A stretch of 64,000 nucleotides of DNA from Trueperaceae bacterium (GTDB taxonomy: Bacteria > Deinococcota > Deinococci > Deinococcales > Trueperaceae). Location of the stretch: the NCBI GenBank assembly GCA_965215565.1, contig CBDCDZ010000004.1, forward strand, positions 3,744,001 through 3,808,000, given 5' to 3'. Shown here piece by piece: positions 39,001 through 45,000 of this stretch (position 1 is its first letter; each line of letters begins with the position of its first letter). Position numbers: made by a program.

Positions 39001-42000
39001 CCTATCCTCTTGCTGCGCGGCGTCATAGAAACGCCTGTAGTCCTCTAGCGACGCAACGTTTTCGTTTCTAGCGTCCTCATAAGGATTGACGATGTCAGCG
39101 CTGACCTCGGGTACAGGAATCTCCCGAAACCCCCAAGGCTGGCTGAGGGCGATAAGCACTAAGCTCATTATGGTGAGGCTCAAGAGTAAGAGAAGTCGCT
39201 GCCGGGTTAGAAGTACCACACCCTAGTCTACGGAGCCCCTGCGCCTCTATGTTAAGAAAGGCGACAAAATGTGAAATAGTTCAAACGGACGCTTTGCCCC
39301 GAGTTTCGCAGCCCCTTTGGTAGTCTTGTGTCTAGGGTGCTGGGGGGGTAAACTGTGATTCGTAGGTGCGTGGGCCCTTAGCTCAGTTGGTTAGAGCAGT
39401 CGACTCATAATCGATTGGTCGTGGGTTCAAGTCCCCCAGGGCCCATCCCGAAAAAGCGCGTGACACACGCAAAAGGGGCGACCACCCCGAATGGGGTAGT
39501 CGCCCTAAATTCTGAATTACAGTTCAACTACAGCTACAAACTAGCGTCTGATACCCTTTACCCTTTTTACGCGCGAGGTTTCTGAGACGCCCCAACGTAT
39601 CCTCGTCCAGCCGCAGTGAAGTGCTCGTGCTCCGTTTGCAGACGGGGCGCGCGGGGAATTCCTGTGTAGCAGCTTCGTCCATAAGCTCCTCGCTTCAGAC
39701 GTGCGTGCTCCAAAAGTTATGCTCCTGACGTTCGTTCTTAAAAACGGGTAGGTCGTCCTTGCTATAAACGATGGTGAACCCGTCCTCGGTTTTTTCAGGT
39801 CGCTCTGCCATCGTAAAAGTATACACGGCGCTTAGAGGGCAGTTTAACAAGCAGATGCTAAACTGTCCCATGCGCACTGTAAAAGCTCTCATCAACGAGC
39901 ACGGCAAAGTAGAACTTTTAGAGCCCCTCACGCTGAGTGAAGAGCGCCAAGCCCTCGTCACCATCCTCGACACGCCCACTCAAGAGCCGCGCCCCTTCGG
40001 GCTCTGCAAGGGCGAATTCAGCGTGCCAGATGACTTCGACGCGCCTCTACCTGACGACACTCTGGATGACTTCGAGCGTACGTGAGGCTGCTTTTAGTTA
40101 CGCAAATTGATGACCTCAATATTTCCTCTGTACTTTGTCATGTCCCTGTCCACCGTGTAGAGCCGCGTCGCGCCCTTGCTCAGCACCGAGCTGAGGATGA
40201 GCGCGTCCGCCATGCTCAGTCCGTTTCCGTGCGCTAGACGAACCGCCTGGTCAACGATAGGGAGCGCCGTATCATCTAAGAACACCACGTCGTACAGCAG
40301 CGGTATATCGGTGGCTACCTGAAACGCGGCATTTTTGCTCAACATACCCTTCAAGCCGAGCTTCTTCAGCTCGTAAATGCAGACAACGCTTGTCACTAAC
40401 GCATGTTCGCCCTGCGCTGCCTCCTGGGTAAGCTGCCTAACAGTAGGATTCCGCAAGATGAATTCTACGAAGAACCCCGTATCACAGCCGATGGTCACGT
40501 GCGCTTCTGATCTGCTAGTCGCATACGTTCAAGCTCAGCCACGTACTCTTCGGATACCTCCGCGCCCTCGCTCGCCGCAACTATTCGCGAGAGTGCCGCC
40601 TGCCGCTGGCTTATTTTACTGCCTAAAAACTCCACGAAGTTCAGCACCTCTCGCTGACGCTCAGGGGGCAACTCGCGCAACCTCTCCAAAACTGCCTCTT
40701 CGACGCTCATGACACACTCCCTTCTACAATCTTAACCTCTTCCTCCGTCAGCCCATAAAGCTCATACACCAGCGCGTCTATCCGCTCGCCCAGCGCCGCA
40801 ATCTCCCGCGTCACGCGCTCTAACTCCGAGCCCGCCGCACCCGCCTTCTGCTCATGCAGCCCCAACATCTCATCCACCATTTTTGTCATGCAGTCGTGCT
40901 GGTGTTTGTCGGTGGGGTTGGAGAGGTTGAGGGTGCGGATGGGGAGTTGTTCGACGTATTGGGTGAAGAAGCGGAGGTAGCCGCCGCGATAAACAGCGAA
41001 TGCGTTACTGTAGACGAACATCATAAGCGCCGAATTGATGAGGGCGAGAAGATATTTATCGTTGCTCGGAAAAAAGTAAGTGGTGTTGACGGAGTAAAAG
41101 TTACCGCAAGCATCTAGCGTAAAATTCCCTCGAGAACCGATGTCAGGGAAGATAATTTTAGATTTTTCAAAAAGGTTGTAGTAGTCGCAGGGTCTCAGCT
41201 CCCACCAAAACTGACCTTTATCCCCGCGCTTTCTTGCTCGTTCTTCAAAGGGTTTCAAATGTTCCGTGATTGCGGGGTATTGCTGCTGTAACCACGCCCA
41301 CTTATCGCTCGTCTCTCCTGAATTCGCGTTCGTCCAGCCATTTGGAAAGAGAATAAGGTGCTTATCGCTCTGCGGAGGCTGATACCTCTTCACATCCCGC
41401 CCCGCCAAAAACGGTTTAATCACCTCTTCGTTTTTCGGGTCTTCGGCGATGAGCTTGTCTCTGGTGGCTTGGTCGATGACGAAGGCTTCATTAAAACCTG
41501 TTTTGATACCGTAGTAGATTTTCCCGTCTACGTACCTCTCTAACGGCACGCCTGCTTTGTTTATCTTGTTCAAGACCTTTTGCGCGTCCTTGCTGGCTAA
41601 GGACCAGCCGCTACCGTCTAGCTCGGCTTGGGGTTGGGCGTAGGCACGCTGTTTGATGTAGCCGCGCAGGTCGTTGTAGGCTAACTCCTCCATCTTGACG
41701 ATGTTCACCTCTTGGCTGGGCTTGTCTCTGCTTACGAAGAGGATGCAGGGGTAGGTGGTGGCGCTTTCAAAGACGGGTAGGTCGCCGTAGTCGATGATGG
41801 TCATGAGGTCTTGCTTTTTGAGCCATTGGCGCAAGGGCTTGCCGTAGTTCGCCCGCATCCACTTGTTCGCGACGATGTAGGAGAAGACGCCTTTTCTCCT
41901 TAGCAGCTTGACGCCTAGCTCGATGAAGTAGACGAAGAGGTCTGCCGCGCCGTGATACGCCTCGTATTGGGCTTTGAGGTGCGGCTTGAGGTCGCCTAGC

Positions 42001-45000
42001 GCTTCTTGGCGGACGTAGGGCGGGTTGCCGATGACGATATCGAAGCCACCATCTCTGATAGCTCTGGGTTCAGCAAGGGGCTGAGCAAGGGGCTGAGCAA
42101 GGGGCTGAGTGGGGTGCTGAGCAAGGGGCTGAAGCCCCTTGTTGGTGGCGGTGGCGCTCTCTGGTGAGGTCAGCATGGATTCAACAAGGGGTTTCAACCC
42201 CTTGTTCTCAGGAAGGCGGTGCTTGTCTCTGTTGTGGGTCACGTAGTGCAAGGTGTTGTGAAGTTGCGCGTCCGTCGTGATCGCTTGCGCATGATACTTC
42301 TGCGCCCACAAATTGAGCGGGTCTGTAATGCCGCGTGCTTGCTTGAAGCGGTATGCGGATTTACCTTTGAGCTTGCGGACAATGTCGCTAAGCTCGTTAG
42401 GATCACACGTCAGGACCATATGAACGTGGTCTTGGCAGATGTTGTACGCCGACACCTTCAGGTCGTTTTCGGCGACGGTATCACGGATATAGCGTGTAAT
42501 CTCGACCTCTTGCGCTTCGTCTAGCAGAACGGGTTCACCGCGCTTGACACCGAACGTCACCATGCGTTCGCTCACGCGGCTGTTGTGCGCAACCCAAGTG
42601 ACATGATACGCCTGCAAAGTTTGTGGCGTGTGGATGTGCTGCCGGAAGACCTCACTAAAATGAACGCGGAAGTCGAAGTCCGCCTTTGCGCCGAAGTCTT
42701 GGGCAGACTTAAAGACGTTCGTGATGGTTTGGTCTATACGGGCGGAGAGGTCGCGCTTCTGCTTTTGGCGTGTCTCGCTGAAGTACGCCCGCTTGAGCTT
42801 TTCTAACTCGCGCATCTCGCTGTCGTCTAAGATGGCTCCTTCCAAACTCAGCACGGAGTTTCCTGCGACGATCTTATAGTCTAAGTTGGGCAGCGGCTCG
42901 ATGCCGTCGGCGTCGTCTTCGTCTACGACTAGCGAGAGCCAGAGGCGCAGCTTGGCGATGTCTACGGCGCTACGGTCGATGTCCACGCCGTAGATGCTCT
43001 CCTGGATGGCGCGGCGCTTGAGGGCGTAGGGGGTGCGCTCTTGTGGGTCTTTGAGGTGGGGCGTCAGCGCGGCGCGGGCGCGGACGATCTCGTTCATGAT
43101 GCCTACCGGAAACGCGCCGGAGCCGATGGCGGGGTCGCAGATTTTGATGTTGGCTAGAGCGTCGTCCACCTCTTGCGCGTGCTCGCGGACGCTTTCGGGC
43201 AGCCGGAAGGTGTACTTATCGGTCTCTTTGCCCTTTTTCATCACGCGGGTATCGTTTTCTACGGCTTGGTCGCCTAAGCGGATGAAGGTCTCTAGGTCCT
43301 CCTTGGGGACGCGCGGCTCGTAGACCTCTTCGGTGAGGGCGGCTTGGGTAGCTTGGGGTCGCCCAAAGAGGTCGTCCTGAACAGCTCCGACTATAGCAAA
43401 GGGCTTAAGCCCCTTGTTCAAGCGGGTGTCCAGAAAGCTCACTAGGCTCTCCTGACACATGTAGTGGACGATTTCGCGGGGCGTGTAGAACGCGCCTTTA
43501 GACTTGCGGTCTTCGACTTCCAAGAGGTTTTCAAAGACCTTACCGAGCATCTCGGGGTCTACGGCGACCTCTTTCTCCAAGGGTTCGTCTTCACGCACGG
43601 TGAAGTTGTACAAATCGAACACGTCCATGATGCGCTCGAAGGTCTTGTTTTGAAGCGGTATCGGCACGTTCACCCAGTCGTAGCCGCCGCTCGGCTCGAA
43701 GAGTCCGCCATTCAAAAAGGGGATTTTGCAGTCAAAGCGGCTGTAGAAGTTCTCGCTGCGCTCGAGGGCTAGGGCTTCGTAGAACAAGGGTTCTAAGATG
43801 TCGTCGAAAAAGTTGGTGTACGGCACGTAATCCTGCTTGTAGAGGCGGCGCAAGAAGTCCTTGGGTCCCGCGCCCCACGCTTCGCCGCGCTCCACGCCGA
43901 GCCAGCCCTTTTTCTGTAAGAAGTATAAGAAGACAACCTGACCCATGAGCCGTTTGGCGAAGTTGGCGGGGGTGAGGTCTTTGGTTTCGAACTCGGTCTG
44001 TATCTCTTGGTTGCGCTTTAAGAGAGCGTCTAGCTCCTCTTTGAGTTCCAGAAAGAGTGCTTTGTACTGCTTGAAGAACTCTGCCGTCACGCTCTCGATG
44101 TCGAAGGCGGCTTCTAAGGCGTTTAGCGTGACCGGAGCGTCCCTGCGCAGGATAGGTAAGAGCTGTTGCTGCGCGGTGTGGGTGCGCTCGCCTTCACCGA
44201 CCAGGAAGGAGTAGCGGCGAGCTGGGCTGAGTTCCTTGCTGGTTTTGCCCGTTTCGAAGTCGAGGCTGTACTCCATGCGCACCAGCGAGAAGCGCCAGTC
44301 GGGGGTGTCGTCGCTGTAGAAGGCGACCAGGGCGGCGTCGCGCTGAATGTCGCCGCGCCCCCGGTCTAAATACTTGGCGACGAAGTTGCGCTGAGTGGTG
44401 CGGGCGCGTTCTAGTTTGCTGTTGCCTTTGAGTTTCACCGCGAGGATGTCTATCTGGTTTTCCTCGGCGTCCGTGAATGAGCCGATGCGCTTGTACTGCG
44501 CGACGTGGTCTTTGTAGTCGTCCCAGATGTAGTTGCCGCTGAGGGCGCGGTCGTCCTTCTCGCCGAACTCCCTGAACACGTTGCGCACAAACGTCCTGAA
44601 ACGCGCCTCGTCGTAGGGCTGGTTGAAGGTCGCTTCGACTAATCTCTTTGCGGCTTGCTCGTTCACGTTACGTTGTTACCTTTCTTGGCGAGGGGCTTGG
44701 CAGTGGCAGTAGCAAGGGGCTTAAGCCCCTTGTTGAGCCCCTTGTTACCTTGACTACTCATTACCAACTAGATACTCAGACAGGATGACCTCACGCGGCA
44801 CGCTCTCGGTGTCGTCCTGGGCGGTTCTCACAAACGTGCTTTCGCCGATGTGCTGCTTCAACACGTTTAGGATAGTGAGCGGTTGATAGCCCGCTGCTTT
44901 GAGGTCGGACATGACGGTCTTGGTGGTGTTTTTGGCGACCGTGCCCGCCTCTAACGCCTGCCGCACCTCACCCAAATAGACTTCGTCGTCGTCGGTGAAG

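What a model noticed while it worked through the whole genome (the two positions that open the first line are those of the whole stretch)
40707..44900. A 99-copy REP hairpin family whose cognate RAYT transposase sits inside a restriction-methylase and carries the REP in i [...]
A 20-bp hairpin CAAGGGGTT-NN-AACCCCTTG occurs 99 times, nearly all between genes. Three copies lie in frame inside g03642 (read as NKGLKPL, NKGLQPL and NKGLKPF) and one lies just upstream of it. The HUH domain of that enzyme is therefore a REP-associated tyrosine transposase (RAYT), not an IS200 transposase, and this hairpin is its REP. The earlier list has the domain; the REP family and the link are new.
Evidence so far: 99 copies with at most 2 mismatches, 0 in a shuffle, 5 in called genes of which 3 are in g03642. 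The domain has Y---N (YVTHNR) rather than the IS200 Y---Q (signatures from PMC6006769, passages), and it is the only such domain found in the genome by tblastn. In G010 a free-standing 58-60% identical copy sits between nuoD and nuoE flanked by two such REPs. Fused copies in G009 and in three genomes of other phyla carry the same REP in frame.
(Added by a program. Inside this text positions count along the whole contig: contig position 3,744,001 is position 1 of the stretch shown here. "Call 12" and the like, gene names such as g00115 and contig names such as C1 are that model's own, and its searches are not shown. The text may have been shortened before it was handed on; [...] marks where a part breaks off. 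The agent that wrote the report below was given it as the finding of a first reader that could run no searches.)

Follow-up and report, generated by a model that had tools for sequence, protein, structure and literature searches.

The report
Hairpin transposase nested in restriction methylase
A small single-strand-DNA-cutting transposase and its partner DNA hairpin are translated in frame inside a phage-defence DNA methylase, as in about half of its relatives across many bacterial groups, but most of this genome's roughly 100 hairpin copies were spread by a different, ordinary mobile element.

Summary
Mostly real, with two corrections. A complete HUH/Y1 domain (DHVH, WAQK, YVTHNR) sits in frame in the loop before motif IV (GGFD-NPPY) of a type IIG-like adenine methylase. 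It belongs to a distinct lineage on the RAYT side of the family, with Y---NR instead of Y---NP. Its partner is a 20-nt CAA...TTG hairpin without a GTAG foot: 77 of 80 homologous loci carry one, with compensated stems. 112 of 239 complete homologues are fused, 108 with intact catalytic residues; fused copies are not one clade. Here the domain arrived on a swapped ~1.9-kb methylase/specificity cassette. Correction 1: 75 of 97 genomic hairpins lie in a 116-bp MITE with IS1-type ends and 8-bp target duplications, so the copy number is mainly IS1 work; 22 are solo. Correction 2: the genome holds a second, canonical RAYT with its own GTAG REP family. Activity is untested. I found no description in nine literature searches, but this scan has already reported the same nesting on other DNA, including this lineage (e1-1567061).

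The parts
40707..44666 (-). Type IIG-like (Eco57I family) N6-adenine methylase / restriction-modification gene, 1319 aa, one open frame
   Evidence: ORF; Pfam Eco57I, N6_Mtase, TaqI_C, Y1_Tnp; PADLOC REase_MTase_IIG E 2e-269; model matches CamA, M.TaqI, BpuSI, MmeI
42051..42641 (-). In-frame insert (aa 676-872) in the loop between FSEVF and GGFD-NPPY; relatives have about 5 residues here
   Evidence: alignment; empty sites in G005 and G055; junctions spanned without differences
42150..42641 (-). HUH/Y1 nuclease-transposase domain: H747 and H749 (42420-42428), W787, catalytic Y808 (42243-42245)
   Evidence: Pfam PF01797 E 6e-13; invariant columns; model pLDDT 96; fold matches
42185..42204 (.). 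Exact 20-nt hairpin at the 3' end of the HUH domain, read as NKGLKPL; this position is shared by many homologues
   Evidence: folds at -10 kcal/mol, z -4.9
42122..42141 (.). Compensated variant hairpin (GGGGCT..AGCCCC), read as NKGLQPL
42070..42121 (-). Tandem 12-nt half-hairpin repeats read as QPLA, a disordered linker back to the methylase
   Evidence: sequence; pLDDT < 50 for model residues 355-384
43397..43416 (.). Imperfect variant hairpin in the methylase N-terminal half (NKGLKPF); part of a 12-codon patch that replaces the native codons with no change of length
   Evidence: alignment with P0271 and others; DNA of G005, G055, G142
44713..44732 (.). Variant hairpin between the helicase stop and the methylase start
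43110..43124 (-). SAM-binding motif I (GSGAF, aa 515)
   Evidence: translation; position
42015..42026 (-). Catalytic motif IV (NPPY, aa 881), just downstream of the insert
   Evidence: translation; position
40950..42855 (-). Swapped cassette, about aa 605-1240 (HUH insert, second methylase half, specificity region); limits approximate to about 40 codons
   Evidence: identity to P0271 is 92-100% outside and 9-42% inside
44754..48026 (-). Partner defence gene: PLD nuclease plus SNF2 helicase, 1090 aa
   Evidence: Pfam; NCBIfam; PADLOC; same pair in G005, G055, G142
1003..1116 (-). One copy of the 116-bp IS1-type MITE that carries the hairpin (hairpin at 1062-1081)
31059..31184 (+). Second MITE copy in the window (hairpin at 31109-31128, with internal partial duplications)

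Best explanation
This is a REPtron-like unit (HUH/Y1 gene plus cognate 20-nt hairpin) of an unclassified lineage on the RAYT side of the family. It has repeatedly moved between a free-standing state and one tolerant loop of type IIG adenine methylases, where it is translated as an extra, still catalytic domain. Shown: the in-frame site, the optional insert, the hairpin partnership, intact residues, purifying selection, non-monophyly of fused copies, and a cassette swap in this allele. Inferred: the enzyme binds the folded single-strand hairpin, nicks and rejoins DNA through Y808 as a monomer (as E. coli TnpA-REP does), and so seeds hairpins at a low rate, mostly near its own gene and sometimes by overwriting look-alike sequence. 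Once in the loop it spreads by ordinary recombination between methylase genes at conserved flanks, hitch-hiking with a defence gene. In this genome one hairpin was captured by an IS1-derived MITE, and the IS1 transposase made most of the copies.
For: Partnership: a perfect 20-nt CA(A/G)...(T/C)TG hairpin lies within 600 bp in 77 of 80 loci; other end types occur in 1 locus each. A stricter pattern gave 64 of 80 against 0 and 2 of 80 for two controls, with paired stem changes. Fusion: 67 of 69 long homologues are Eco57I-type enzymes; 112 of 239 complete domains are fused, 108 with HUH and Y intact; 56 of 80 loci are inside R-M genes. Control: 1 of about 150 listed canonical RAYT matches in 201 genomes lies in a long frame. 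Optional: 2 of the 120 closest host relatives carry it. All fused as one clade is rejected, p-AU 1.6e-6 on 44 of the 239 rows. dN/dS 0.05-0.16 in 11 close fused pairs. Local activity: 3 of the 4 compensated GGGGCT..AGCCCC hairpins in the genome are at this locus, one is missing from a host 92-100% identical around it, and in G144 all 4 perfect hairpins are at its R-M locus. MITE: 75 of 97; 8-bp duplications 15 of 53 against 0.34 shuffled; three IS1 copies share the first 11 terminal bases and have perfect 8-bp duplications.
Against: No activity was tested. Purifying selection could reflect only the need to fold inside an essential frame. 10 of 13 family genomes with the hairpin lack the gene, so hairpins persist without it. 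By sequence profile the nearest solved proteins are IS200/IS605 TnpAs (E 5e-9) and not TnpA-REP (E 1e-3). The trees rest on 131-138 columns and many forks are open; one clade for the six domains in this host family was not rejected (p-AU 0.20). No target duplication or conserved target sequence marks the insert junctions. 38 of 53 complete MITEs lack a clean duplication at the 7-of-8 level.
Confidence: 0.66

Rival explanations
1. Active homing or specificity shuffling: the nested nuclease nicks at the hairpins in its own gene and so stimulates recombination, copying itself into empty methylase alleles and swapping the specificity cassette along with it. The host gains faster change of recognition sequence.
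For: The insert lies inside a cassette that was swapped as a block in this allele; filled and empty alleles of the same cassette type coexist (P0068 against G005, G055, P0272); the site is the same in very different host enzymes (12 clusters at 50% identity); many fused genes carry further in-frame hairpins up- and downstream.
Against: Cassette breakpoints (about aa 605 and 1240) fall at conserved protein motifs, not at hairpins. Empty alleles swap the same region too: P0271, P0274 and G142 differ there without any HUH domain. Only 2 of 120 close hosts are filled, low for an efficient homing element. Specificity-domain exchange at conserved flanks is known without such an enzyme (PMC3077401, passages).
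Confidence: 0.14
2. Domesticated defence subunit: the HUH domain now serves the restriction system, for example by nicking single-strand phage or plasmid DNA, and the hairpins are left-overs.
For: dN/dS in close fused pairs (0.05-0.16) is as low as or lower than in close free pairs (0.08-0.28); 4 of 24 free-standing loci lie next to a type IIG gene; an unrelated Y---NP RAYT is nested in another methylase-like ORF in G265.
Against: The insert is absent from most close hosts; free and fused copies are interleaved; hairpins are kept with compensated stems in fused loci; no PADLOC model matches the domain.
Confidence: 0.1
3. One reading: an ordinary RAYT whose activity produced the whole ~99-copy REP family of this genome.
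For: It is the only gene of this lineage in the genome; all 3 family genomes with the gene have the hairpin; the gene's internal hairpin has the same GA centre as 63 of 75 MITE-borne copies.
Against: 75 of 97 copies are inside an element with IS1-type ends and 8-bp duplications, which HUH enzymes do not make (established knowledge of IS200/IS605 and TnpA-REP); the MITE is also in G001, which lacks the gene; no GTAG foot and no Y---NP.
Confidence: 0.05
4. A minimal IS200-like insertion sequence (TnpA with hairpin ends) that happened to land in frame and is now inert.
For: Best sequence and core-fold matches are ISDra2 and IS608 TnpA; the tail Y---NRxKH lines up with the Y---Q--HH tail of subclass 1.2 (PMC6006769 section 15); free copies are flanked by two hairpins.
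Against: Single copy per genome in the 3 family genomes that have it; the tree puts subclasses 1.1 and 1.2 on the other side of a 97-supported branch; 1 weak match each in the plasmid and phage collections; dozens of in-frame events at one loop with intact residues are not a chance landing.
Confidence: 0.05

Closest known systems
REPtrons: RAYT / TnpA-REP with cognate REP (E. coli RayT, PDB 4ER8; TnpA-Y1 class 2 of Quentin et al. 2018, PMC6006769), especially subclass 2.4
   Same: Single-copy HUH/Y1 gene with its own hairpin beside and inside the gene, in frame (a stated trait of subclass 2.4); a dispersed hairpin family; WxQ motif; tyrosine helix placed as in 4ER8 in the model.
   Different: Y---NR/NH instead of Y---NP; own N-terminal motif THNSRxSERM; hairpin is a perfect 20-mer with no GT(A/G)G foot; about half of the members are a domain inside a methylase. 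Quentin et al. discarded long fusion proteins, so such forms were not classified.
TnpA-Y1 class 3, subclass 2.6 and TIRYT/TIRtrons (PMC6006769; Di Nocera et al. 2013, PMC3733652)
   Same: HUH/Y1 genes flanked by atypical, non-GTAG structures that can form genomic repeat families; class 3 also has W[TA] and a longer conserved N-terminus.
   Different: Class 3 has Y---Q and a CnGA foot; 2.6 has Y---NP and a 21-aa insertion; TIRYT repeats share GGGGWSAS, which the common variant does not match. No class 3 sequence was in my tree.
IS200/IS605 TnpA (IS608, ISDra2) and subclass 1.2
   Same: Same core fold (Z 12.4-12.8 over model residues 4-126); best sequence matches among solved structures; DHVH motif.
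   Different: No Y---Q, no multi-copy element, no TnpB seen in the window locus; these structures do not align over the tyrosine helix, which they swap between monomers.
IS1-family insertion sequences and their MITEs
   Same: The 116-bp carrier has IS1-type terminal repeats and 8-bp duplications, and intact IS1 copies are present. This part is ordinary.
   Different: It has captured the hairpin of an unrelated HUH system at its centre.
Specificity-domain exchange in type I and IIG R-M genes (Furuta et al. 2011, PMC3077401); intragenic REP/RPE insertions (PMC3733652)
   Same: Block replacement of the specificity region between conserved flanks; palindromes tolerated in frame in loops.
   Different: Here the exchanged block carries a whole nuclease-transposase domain, and at least one hairpin replaced codons without adding length.

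Membership tests
RAYT / TnpA-REP (class 2) | HUH motif, conserved W and catalytic Y in the Y1 core | tested here: met
   DHVH, WAQK, Y808; invariant in alignments; Pfam PF01797 over cut-off
RAYT / TnpA-REP (class 2) | Y---NP signature (PMC6006769) | tested here: not met
   NR in 190 and NH in 33 of 239 complete domains, NP in none; 9 not matched by the pattern
RAYT / TnpA-REP (class 2) | NCBIfam NF047646 cut-off (80 bits) | tested here: not met
   59 bits for this domain, 42-62 for four homologues; the genome's canonical RAYT also falls short at 73, so the test is strict
RAYT / TnpA-REP (class 2) | Gene flanked by a cognate hairpin that is also dispersed between genes | tested here: met
   77 of 80 loci; 22 solo copies here; dispersed copies in G018, G145, G146, G147
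RAYT / TnpA-REP (class 2) | 5' GT(A/G)G tetranucleotide at the foot of the REP | tested here: not met
   flank profile of 147 hairpins shows only AA before and T(T/C) after
RAYT / TnpA-REP (class 2) | Low copy number, not IS-like | tested here: met
   1 copy in each of the 3 family genomes that have it
RAYT / TnpA-REP (class 2) | Monomer with the tyrosine helix in cis (PMC3479197, passages) | tested here: inconclusive
   only 4ER8 among the DNA-bound Y1 structures aligns over the tyrosine helix (residues 7-155, Z 10.1, rmsd 3.5, 129 aligned), but a single-chain model can fold a swapped helix back
RAYT / TnpA-REP (class 2) | Hairpin-dependent cleavage and strand transfer on single-strand DNA | not testable with these tools
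   needs biochemistry
IS200/IS605 TnpA (subclasses 1.1, 1.2) | Y---Q signature | tested here: not met
   Y---N throughout; NF033573 52 bits against cut-off 55
IS200/IS605 TnpA (subclasses 1.1, 1.2) | Groups with class 1 in a tree | tested here: not met
   8 class 1 rows are set apart by a branch with SH-aLRT 97; the 13 lineage rows form their own group (93); 32 rows, 131 columns, quick tree
TnpA-Y1 class 3 | Y---Q and CnGA foot | tested here: not met
   definition; tree placement against class 3 not tested
IS1-derived MITE (the 116-bp carrier) | Terminal inverted repeats shared with a resident IS1 | tested here: met
   first 11 bases identical to the ends of three InsA/InsB elements
IS1-derived MITE (the 116-bp carrier) | Target duplication of the same length as the IS | tested here: met
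   8 bp: 15 of 53 at >=7/8 against 0.34 shuffled; lengths 6, 7 and 10 give 0, length 9 gives 2
Type IIG / Eco57I-like N6-adenine R-M enzyme (host) | Motif I, NPPY motif IV and specificity domain in one chain | tested here: met
Type IIG / Eco57I-like N6-adenine R-M enzyme (host) | Active N-terminal endonuclease | not tested
   PADLOC model covers aa 1-677 but catalytic residues were not examined

The most novel reading that the evidence does not exclude
A class of splice-free 'protein-nested' mobile elements: an HUH nuclease that lives as a folded domain inside defence methylases, nicks at hairpins written into its host gene, and thereby homes into empty alleles and drives exchange of the methylase's specificity cassette. 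It would be an intein-like lifestyle without splicing that also speeds up diversification of restriction specificity.
Probability: 0.15. Interest if true: 0.85.

Novelty: new variant of a known kind. Interest (0 to 1): 0.6.

Why it matters
How RAYT genes persist as single copies, and what they do for the cell, is an open question. A lineage that lives half of the time inside a defence enzyme, with catalytic residues kept, offers a concrete route of persistence and a clean test: filled and empty alleles of the same gene exist, so fitness, homing and specificity switching can be compared directly. The hairpin has no GTAG guide, so this enzyme must choose its cut site differently from the characterised TnpA-REP proteins. 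The genome also shows a practical trap: REP counts used to pair RAYTs with REPs can be inflated several-fold by an unrelated IS-driven MITE that captured the hairpin.

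Tried and rejected
Homodimer prediction of the HUH domain gave no answer. No RNA holder was listed. Joints that skip the insert come from diverged contigs of other organisms and are no sign of excision. I first read the MITE ends as a GTAG/CTAC double-foot REP moved by the second RAYT; rejected once 8-bp duplications and IS1 copies with the same ends appeared. The idea that cassette breakpoints lie at hairpins was rejected. Template-switch repair of a native quasi-palindrome could explain the hairpin at 43397, but the changed patch runs about five codons past the hairpin and matches the variant upstream, so I prefer pasting; not excluded. 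A DNA search of 128 family genomes with the whole locus was dominated by the tRNA match and useful only for G005, G055, G142, G124. Plasmid and phage collections held one weak match each. In the dN/dS table 73 of 92 pairs (dN >= 0.15, ratios 0.17-0.72) were set aside as saturated. E. coli RayT was fetched but my motif rule did not extract it, so it is not in the tree; 20 of 48 candidate loci yielded a row. Literature searches that found no description of the nesting: (two were for mechanism and MITEs). Supplements of PMC6006769 (Table S1, atypical hairpins) were not read and could list this hairpin type.

Full report
OBSERVATION. The window is G000:C4:3744001-3808000. The palindrome CAAGGGGTT-NN-AACCCCTTG occurs 97 times in the genome at up to 2 mismatches (66, 21 and 10 with 0, 1 and 2) and 100 times at up to 3; three block shuffles gave 0 at up to 2. 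ORF 40707-44666(-) is one open frame of 1319 aa with Eco57I, N6_Mtase and TaqI_C domains and a Y1_Tnp domain at aa 707-811. Hairpins lie at 42185 (exact), 42122 (2 mismatches), 43397 (3 mismatches) and 44713 (2 mismatches, upstream). With crude gene calls of my own, 5 of 100 copies are in genes, 3 in this one. Contigs X1-4 and X2-10 span both insert junctions with no difference; these may be the source sample. A contig of another study (X3-17) carries a related filled allele. So the fusion is not an assembly error.

TWO CORRECTIONS. First, the genome has a second Y1 protein. The Pfam profile finds a 174-aa ORF at C4:3590032-3590556 with DHIH, FWQR and YIVTNP, and a GTAG...CTAC hairpin in frame; 27 copies of that other hairpin family were listed. 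It looks like subclass 2.4 of PMC6006769 (sections 6, 11, 12, 15, 34 and passages read). Second, most copies of the finding's hairpin are the middle of a longer element. Orienting the copies gave a 116-bp consensus with 13-bp terminal inverted repeats. Profiles of the two flanks, built without the hairpin, place 63 of 97 copies between both halves, 12 beside one half and 22 alone. Of 53 copies with both ends, 15 have an 8-bp direct repeat matching at 7 or 8 of 8 positions, against 0.34 in shuffled pairs; lengths 6, 7 and 10 give none and 9 gives two. Three 776-785-bp elements share the first 11 terminal bases, have perfect 8-bp duplications and encode InsA and InsB (NCBIfam IS1 model over cut-off; 98-100% identical). 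The carrier is therefore an IS1-type MITE. It also occurs in G001 (L115), where the HUH lineage was not found.

THE HAIRPIN IS STILL THE PARTNER OF THIS ENZYME. A scan of species genomes confirmed 223 stretches and returned the best 80 loci, from more than ten phyla by record title. A strict hairpin pattern lies within 600 bp of the domain in 64 of 80 loci, against 0 and 2 of 80 for two control patterns; among 147 instances the free stem positions change in pairs (for example T-A 99, C-G 47; G-C 121, T-A 19). Allowing any perfect 9-bp stem with CA(A/G) ends gives 77 of 80, and other end types appear in one locus each. The flanks show AA before and T(T/C) after, with no GTAG. In the window's family 13 of 128 genomes have the hairpin and 3 of 128 have the gene; all 3 are among the 13, and 10 have hairpins only. 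These genomes are kin and many are incomplete. In G144 the only 4 perfect hairpins among 16 loose matches are at its R-M locus; G145, G146 and G147 have dispersed copies. Here, 3 of the 4 compensated GGGGCT..AGCCCC copies in the genome are at this locus.

WHAT KIND OF ENZYME. The lineage has a THNSRxSERM motif, DH(V/I/L)H, W(A/T/S/G)QK and Y---NR or NH, never Y---NP. It is below the NCBIfam cut-offs for RAYT (59 of 80 bits) and IS200 (52 of 55). Solved relatives by sequence are ISDra2 TnpA first (E 5e-9) and TnpA-REP 4ER8 last among Y1 proteins (E 1e-3). The model (pLDDT 96) matches IS608 and ISDra2 at Z 12.1-12.8 but only up to residue 126 at most, whereas 4ER8 aligns over 7-155 including the tyrosine helix (Z 10.1, rmsd 3.5); one apo structure, 2fyx, reaches residue 142 at rmsd 4.7. 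PMC3479197 (passages) reports that TnpA-REP is a monomer while IS200/IS605 TnpAs are obligate dimers with that helix swapped; a monomer suits life as a fused domain, which is inference. In a quick tree of 32 rows, IS200-type 1.1 and 1.2 rows are set apart (97) and the 13 lineage rows form their own group (93) beside the Y---NP rows; class 3 and E. coli RayT were not included. It works like a RAYT but fails the class 2 signature and the GTAG test.

FUSION IS THE HABIT OF THE LINEAGE. Among longer homologues 67 of 69 are Eco57I-type enzymes, one is type ISP and one is PriA-like; near-length search gave 67 proteins, 3 of them methylase fragments. Of 271 proteins pooled (150 of 468 listed there), 239 have a complete domain: 112 fused and 127 short, with HUH and Y intact in 108 and 121. 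Some short proteins may be pieces of broken genes. At DNA level 53 of 80 loci were fused by my motif rule, 3 more proved to lie in R-M genes, and 4 of the other 24 lie next to one. In the type IIG hosts shown, the site is the same loop before GGFD-NPPY (output partly cut). As a control, 1 of about 150 listed matches of the canonical RAYT model in 201 genomes of G144's phylum lies in a frame over 400 aa (368 weaker matches not listed). The insert is optional: 2 of the 120 closest relatives of the host carry it, and 70 of the 87 measurable relatives have 5 residues where this gene has 199. G005 and G055 hold the empty site, about 585 bp shorter, with no duplication at the junction. Hosts fall into 12 clusters at 50% identity. 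A fast tree needs 34 changes between fused and short states but is weakly resolved. On 44 selected rows, one clade of all fused domains is rejected (p-AU 1.6e-6); one clade of the six domains in this host family is not (0.20). dN/dS is 0.05-0.16 in 11 close fused pairs and 0.08-0.28 in 8 close free pairs; pairs share members, and 73 distant pairs were set aside. A model of the methylase core with the insert keeps both folds (pLDDT 88.8; CamA Z 20.3, IS608 Z 12.0 on residues 190-314) with a disordered repeat linker.

HISTORY OF THIS ALLELE. Against P0271 the protein is 92-100% identical over aa 1-600 except the 40 residues around the hairpin at aa 417 (65%), 9-42% over aa 601-1240, and 92-95% after that. 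The middle resembles G005, G055 and P0272 (empty) and P0068 (filled). So the domain came in on a swapped cassette bounded by conserved motifs, the kind of exchange described for R-M specificity regions (PMC3077401, passages). At aa 417 twelve codons are replaced with no length change, at a site whose native DNA already resembles the hairpin's ends. That change is younger than the split from P0271 and suggests recent local pasting.

MECHANISM. Shown: site, optional presence, partnership, intact residues, constraint, polyphyly, cassette swap, IS1-type carrier. Inferred: Y808-dependent nicking and rejoining of the folded single strand, a preference for nearby DNA, and spread by recombination between methylase genes (0.66). 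Rivals: active homing with specificity shuffling (0.14), recruited defence nuclease (0.10), maker of all 97 copies (0.05), inert IS200-like landing (0.05).

NOVELTY. Seven searches found no description of a RAYT-like domain nested in a methylase (listings only). PMC6006769 says it discarded long fusion proteins; PMC5581495 and PMC3733652 passages mention no such fusion; PMC8266576 was seen as abstract only. JGI's automatic names do join both labels, most subscription papers are not searchable, and supplements were not read. In-frame REPs inside RAYT and other genes are known. This scan has reported the same nesting on other DNA at least nine times, once for this lineage; I reached the reading before looking. 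What this window adds is the IS1-MITE capture of the hairpin, the second RAYT, the same-length replacement and the cassette limits. Verdict: new variant of a known kind, interest 0.6.

Noticed in passing
G000:C4:3590032-3590556 (L002:1462-1986, minus strand): A second, free-standing subclass-2.4-like RAYT directly after a mutS-like gene (named from recall), with its own GTAG...CTAC hairpin in frame and at least 27 dispersed copies; an orthologue-like copy is in G001 (L098).
   Followed up: partly
G000:C4:1550429-1551213, 2115255-2116030, 3438706-3439481: Three near-identical IS1 elements with perfect 8-bp duplications, plus two more diverged IS1-like remnants at about 2311600 and 3038000.
   Followed up: yes
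L144:435-4217 (G265): An unrelated Y---NP RAYT sits in frame in a 1260-aa DNA-methylase-like ORF of another family, with its own repeats read as GKDAGAP; nesting in defence methylases has happened in more than one RAYT lineage.
   Followed up: partly
window 39371-48026: The defence pair, a PIN-domain gene (40094-40498) and small antitoxin-like genes lie directly beside tRNA-Met (39371-39448), as for an island integrated at a tRNA; similar small genes lie in G001 (L140).
   Followed up: no
L121:316-4341 (G000:C4 about 1473300-1477340): A second type IIG gene in the genome has an empty loop and shares 62-77% identity with parts of the C-terminal half of the window gene: a possible recombination partner and homing target.
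   Followed up: partly
P0100; P0136, P0218, L060: The same HUH lineage is also fused to the N-terminus of a PriA-like helicase and inserted in the specificity region of type ISP enzymes.
   Followed up: no
L031, L037, L046, L051, L061, L063, L066, L080: Several fused genes have a second in-frame hairpin about 195-215 codons upstream of the HUH domain and others about 580-635 codons downstream, suggesting further hot spots or element-like ends.
   Followed up: no
L155, L159, L162, L167, L171 (G274): One genome holds at least a dozen clustered Y1 genes in frames of about 300-355 aa, possibly a recently expanding subclass 2.1/2.3-like group.
   Followed up: no
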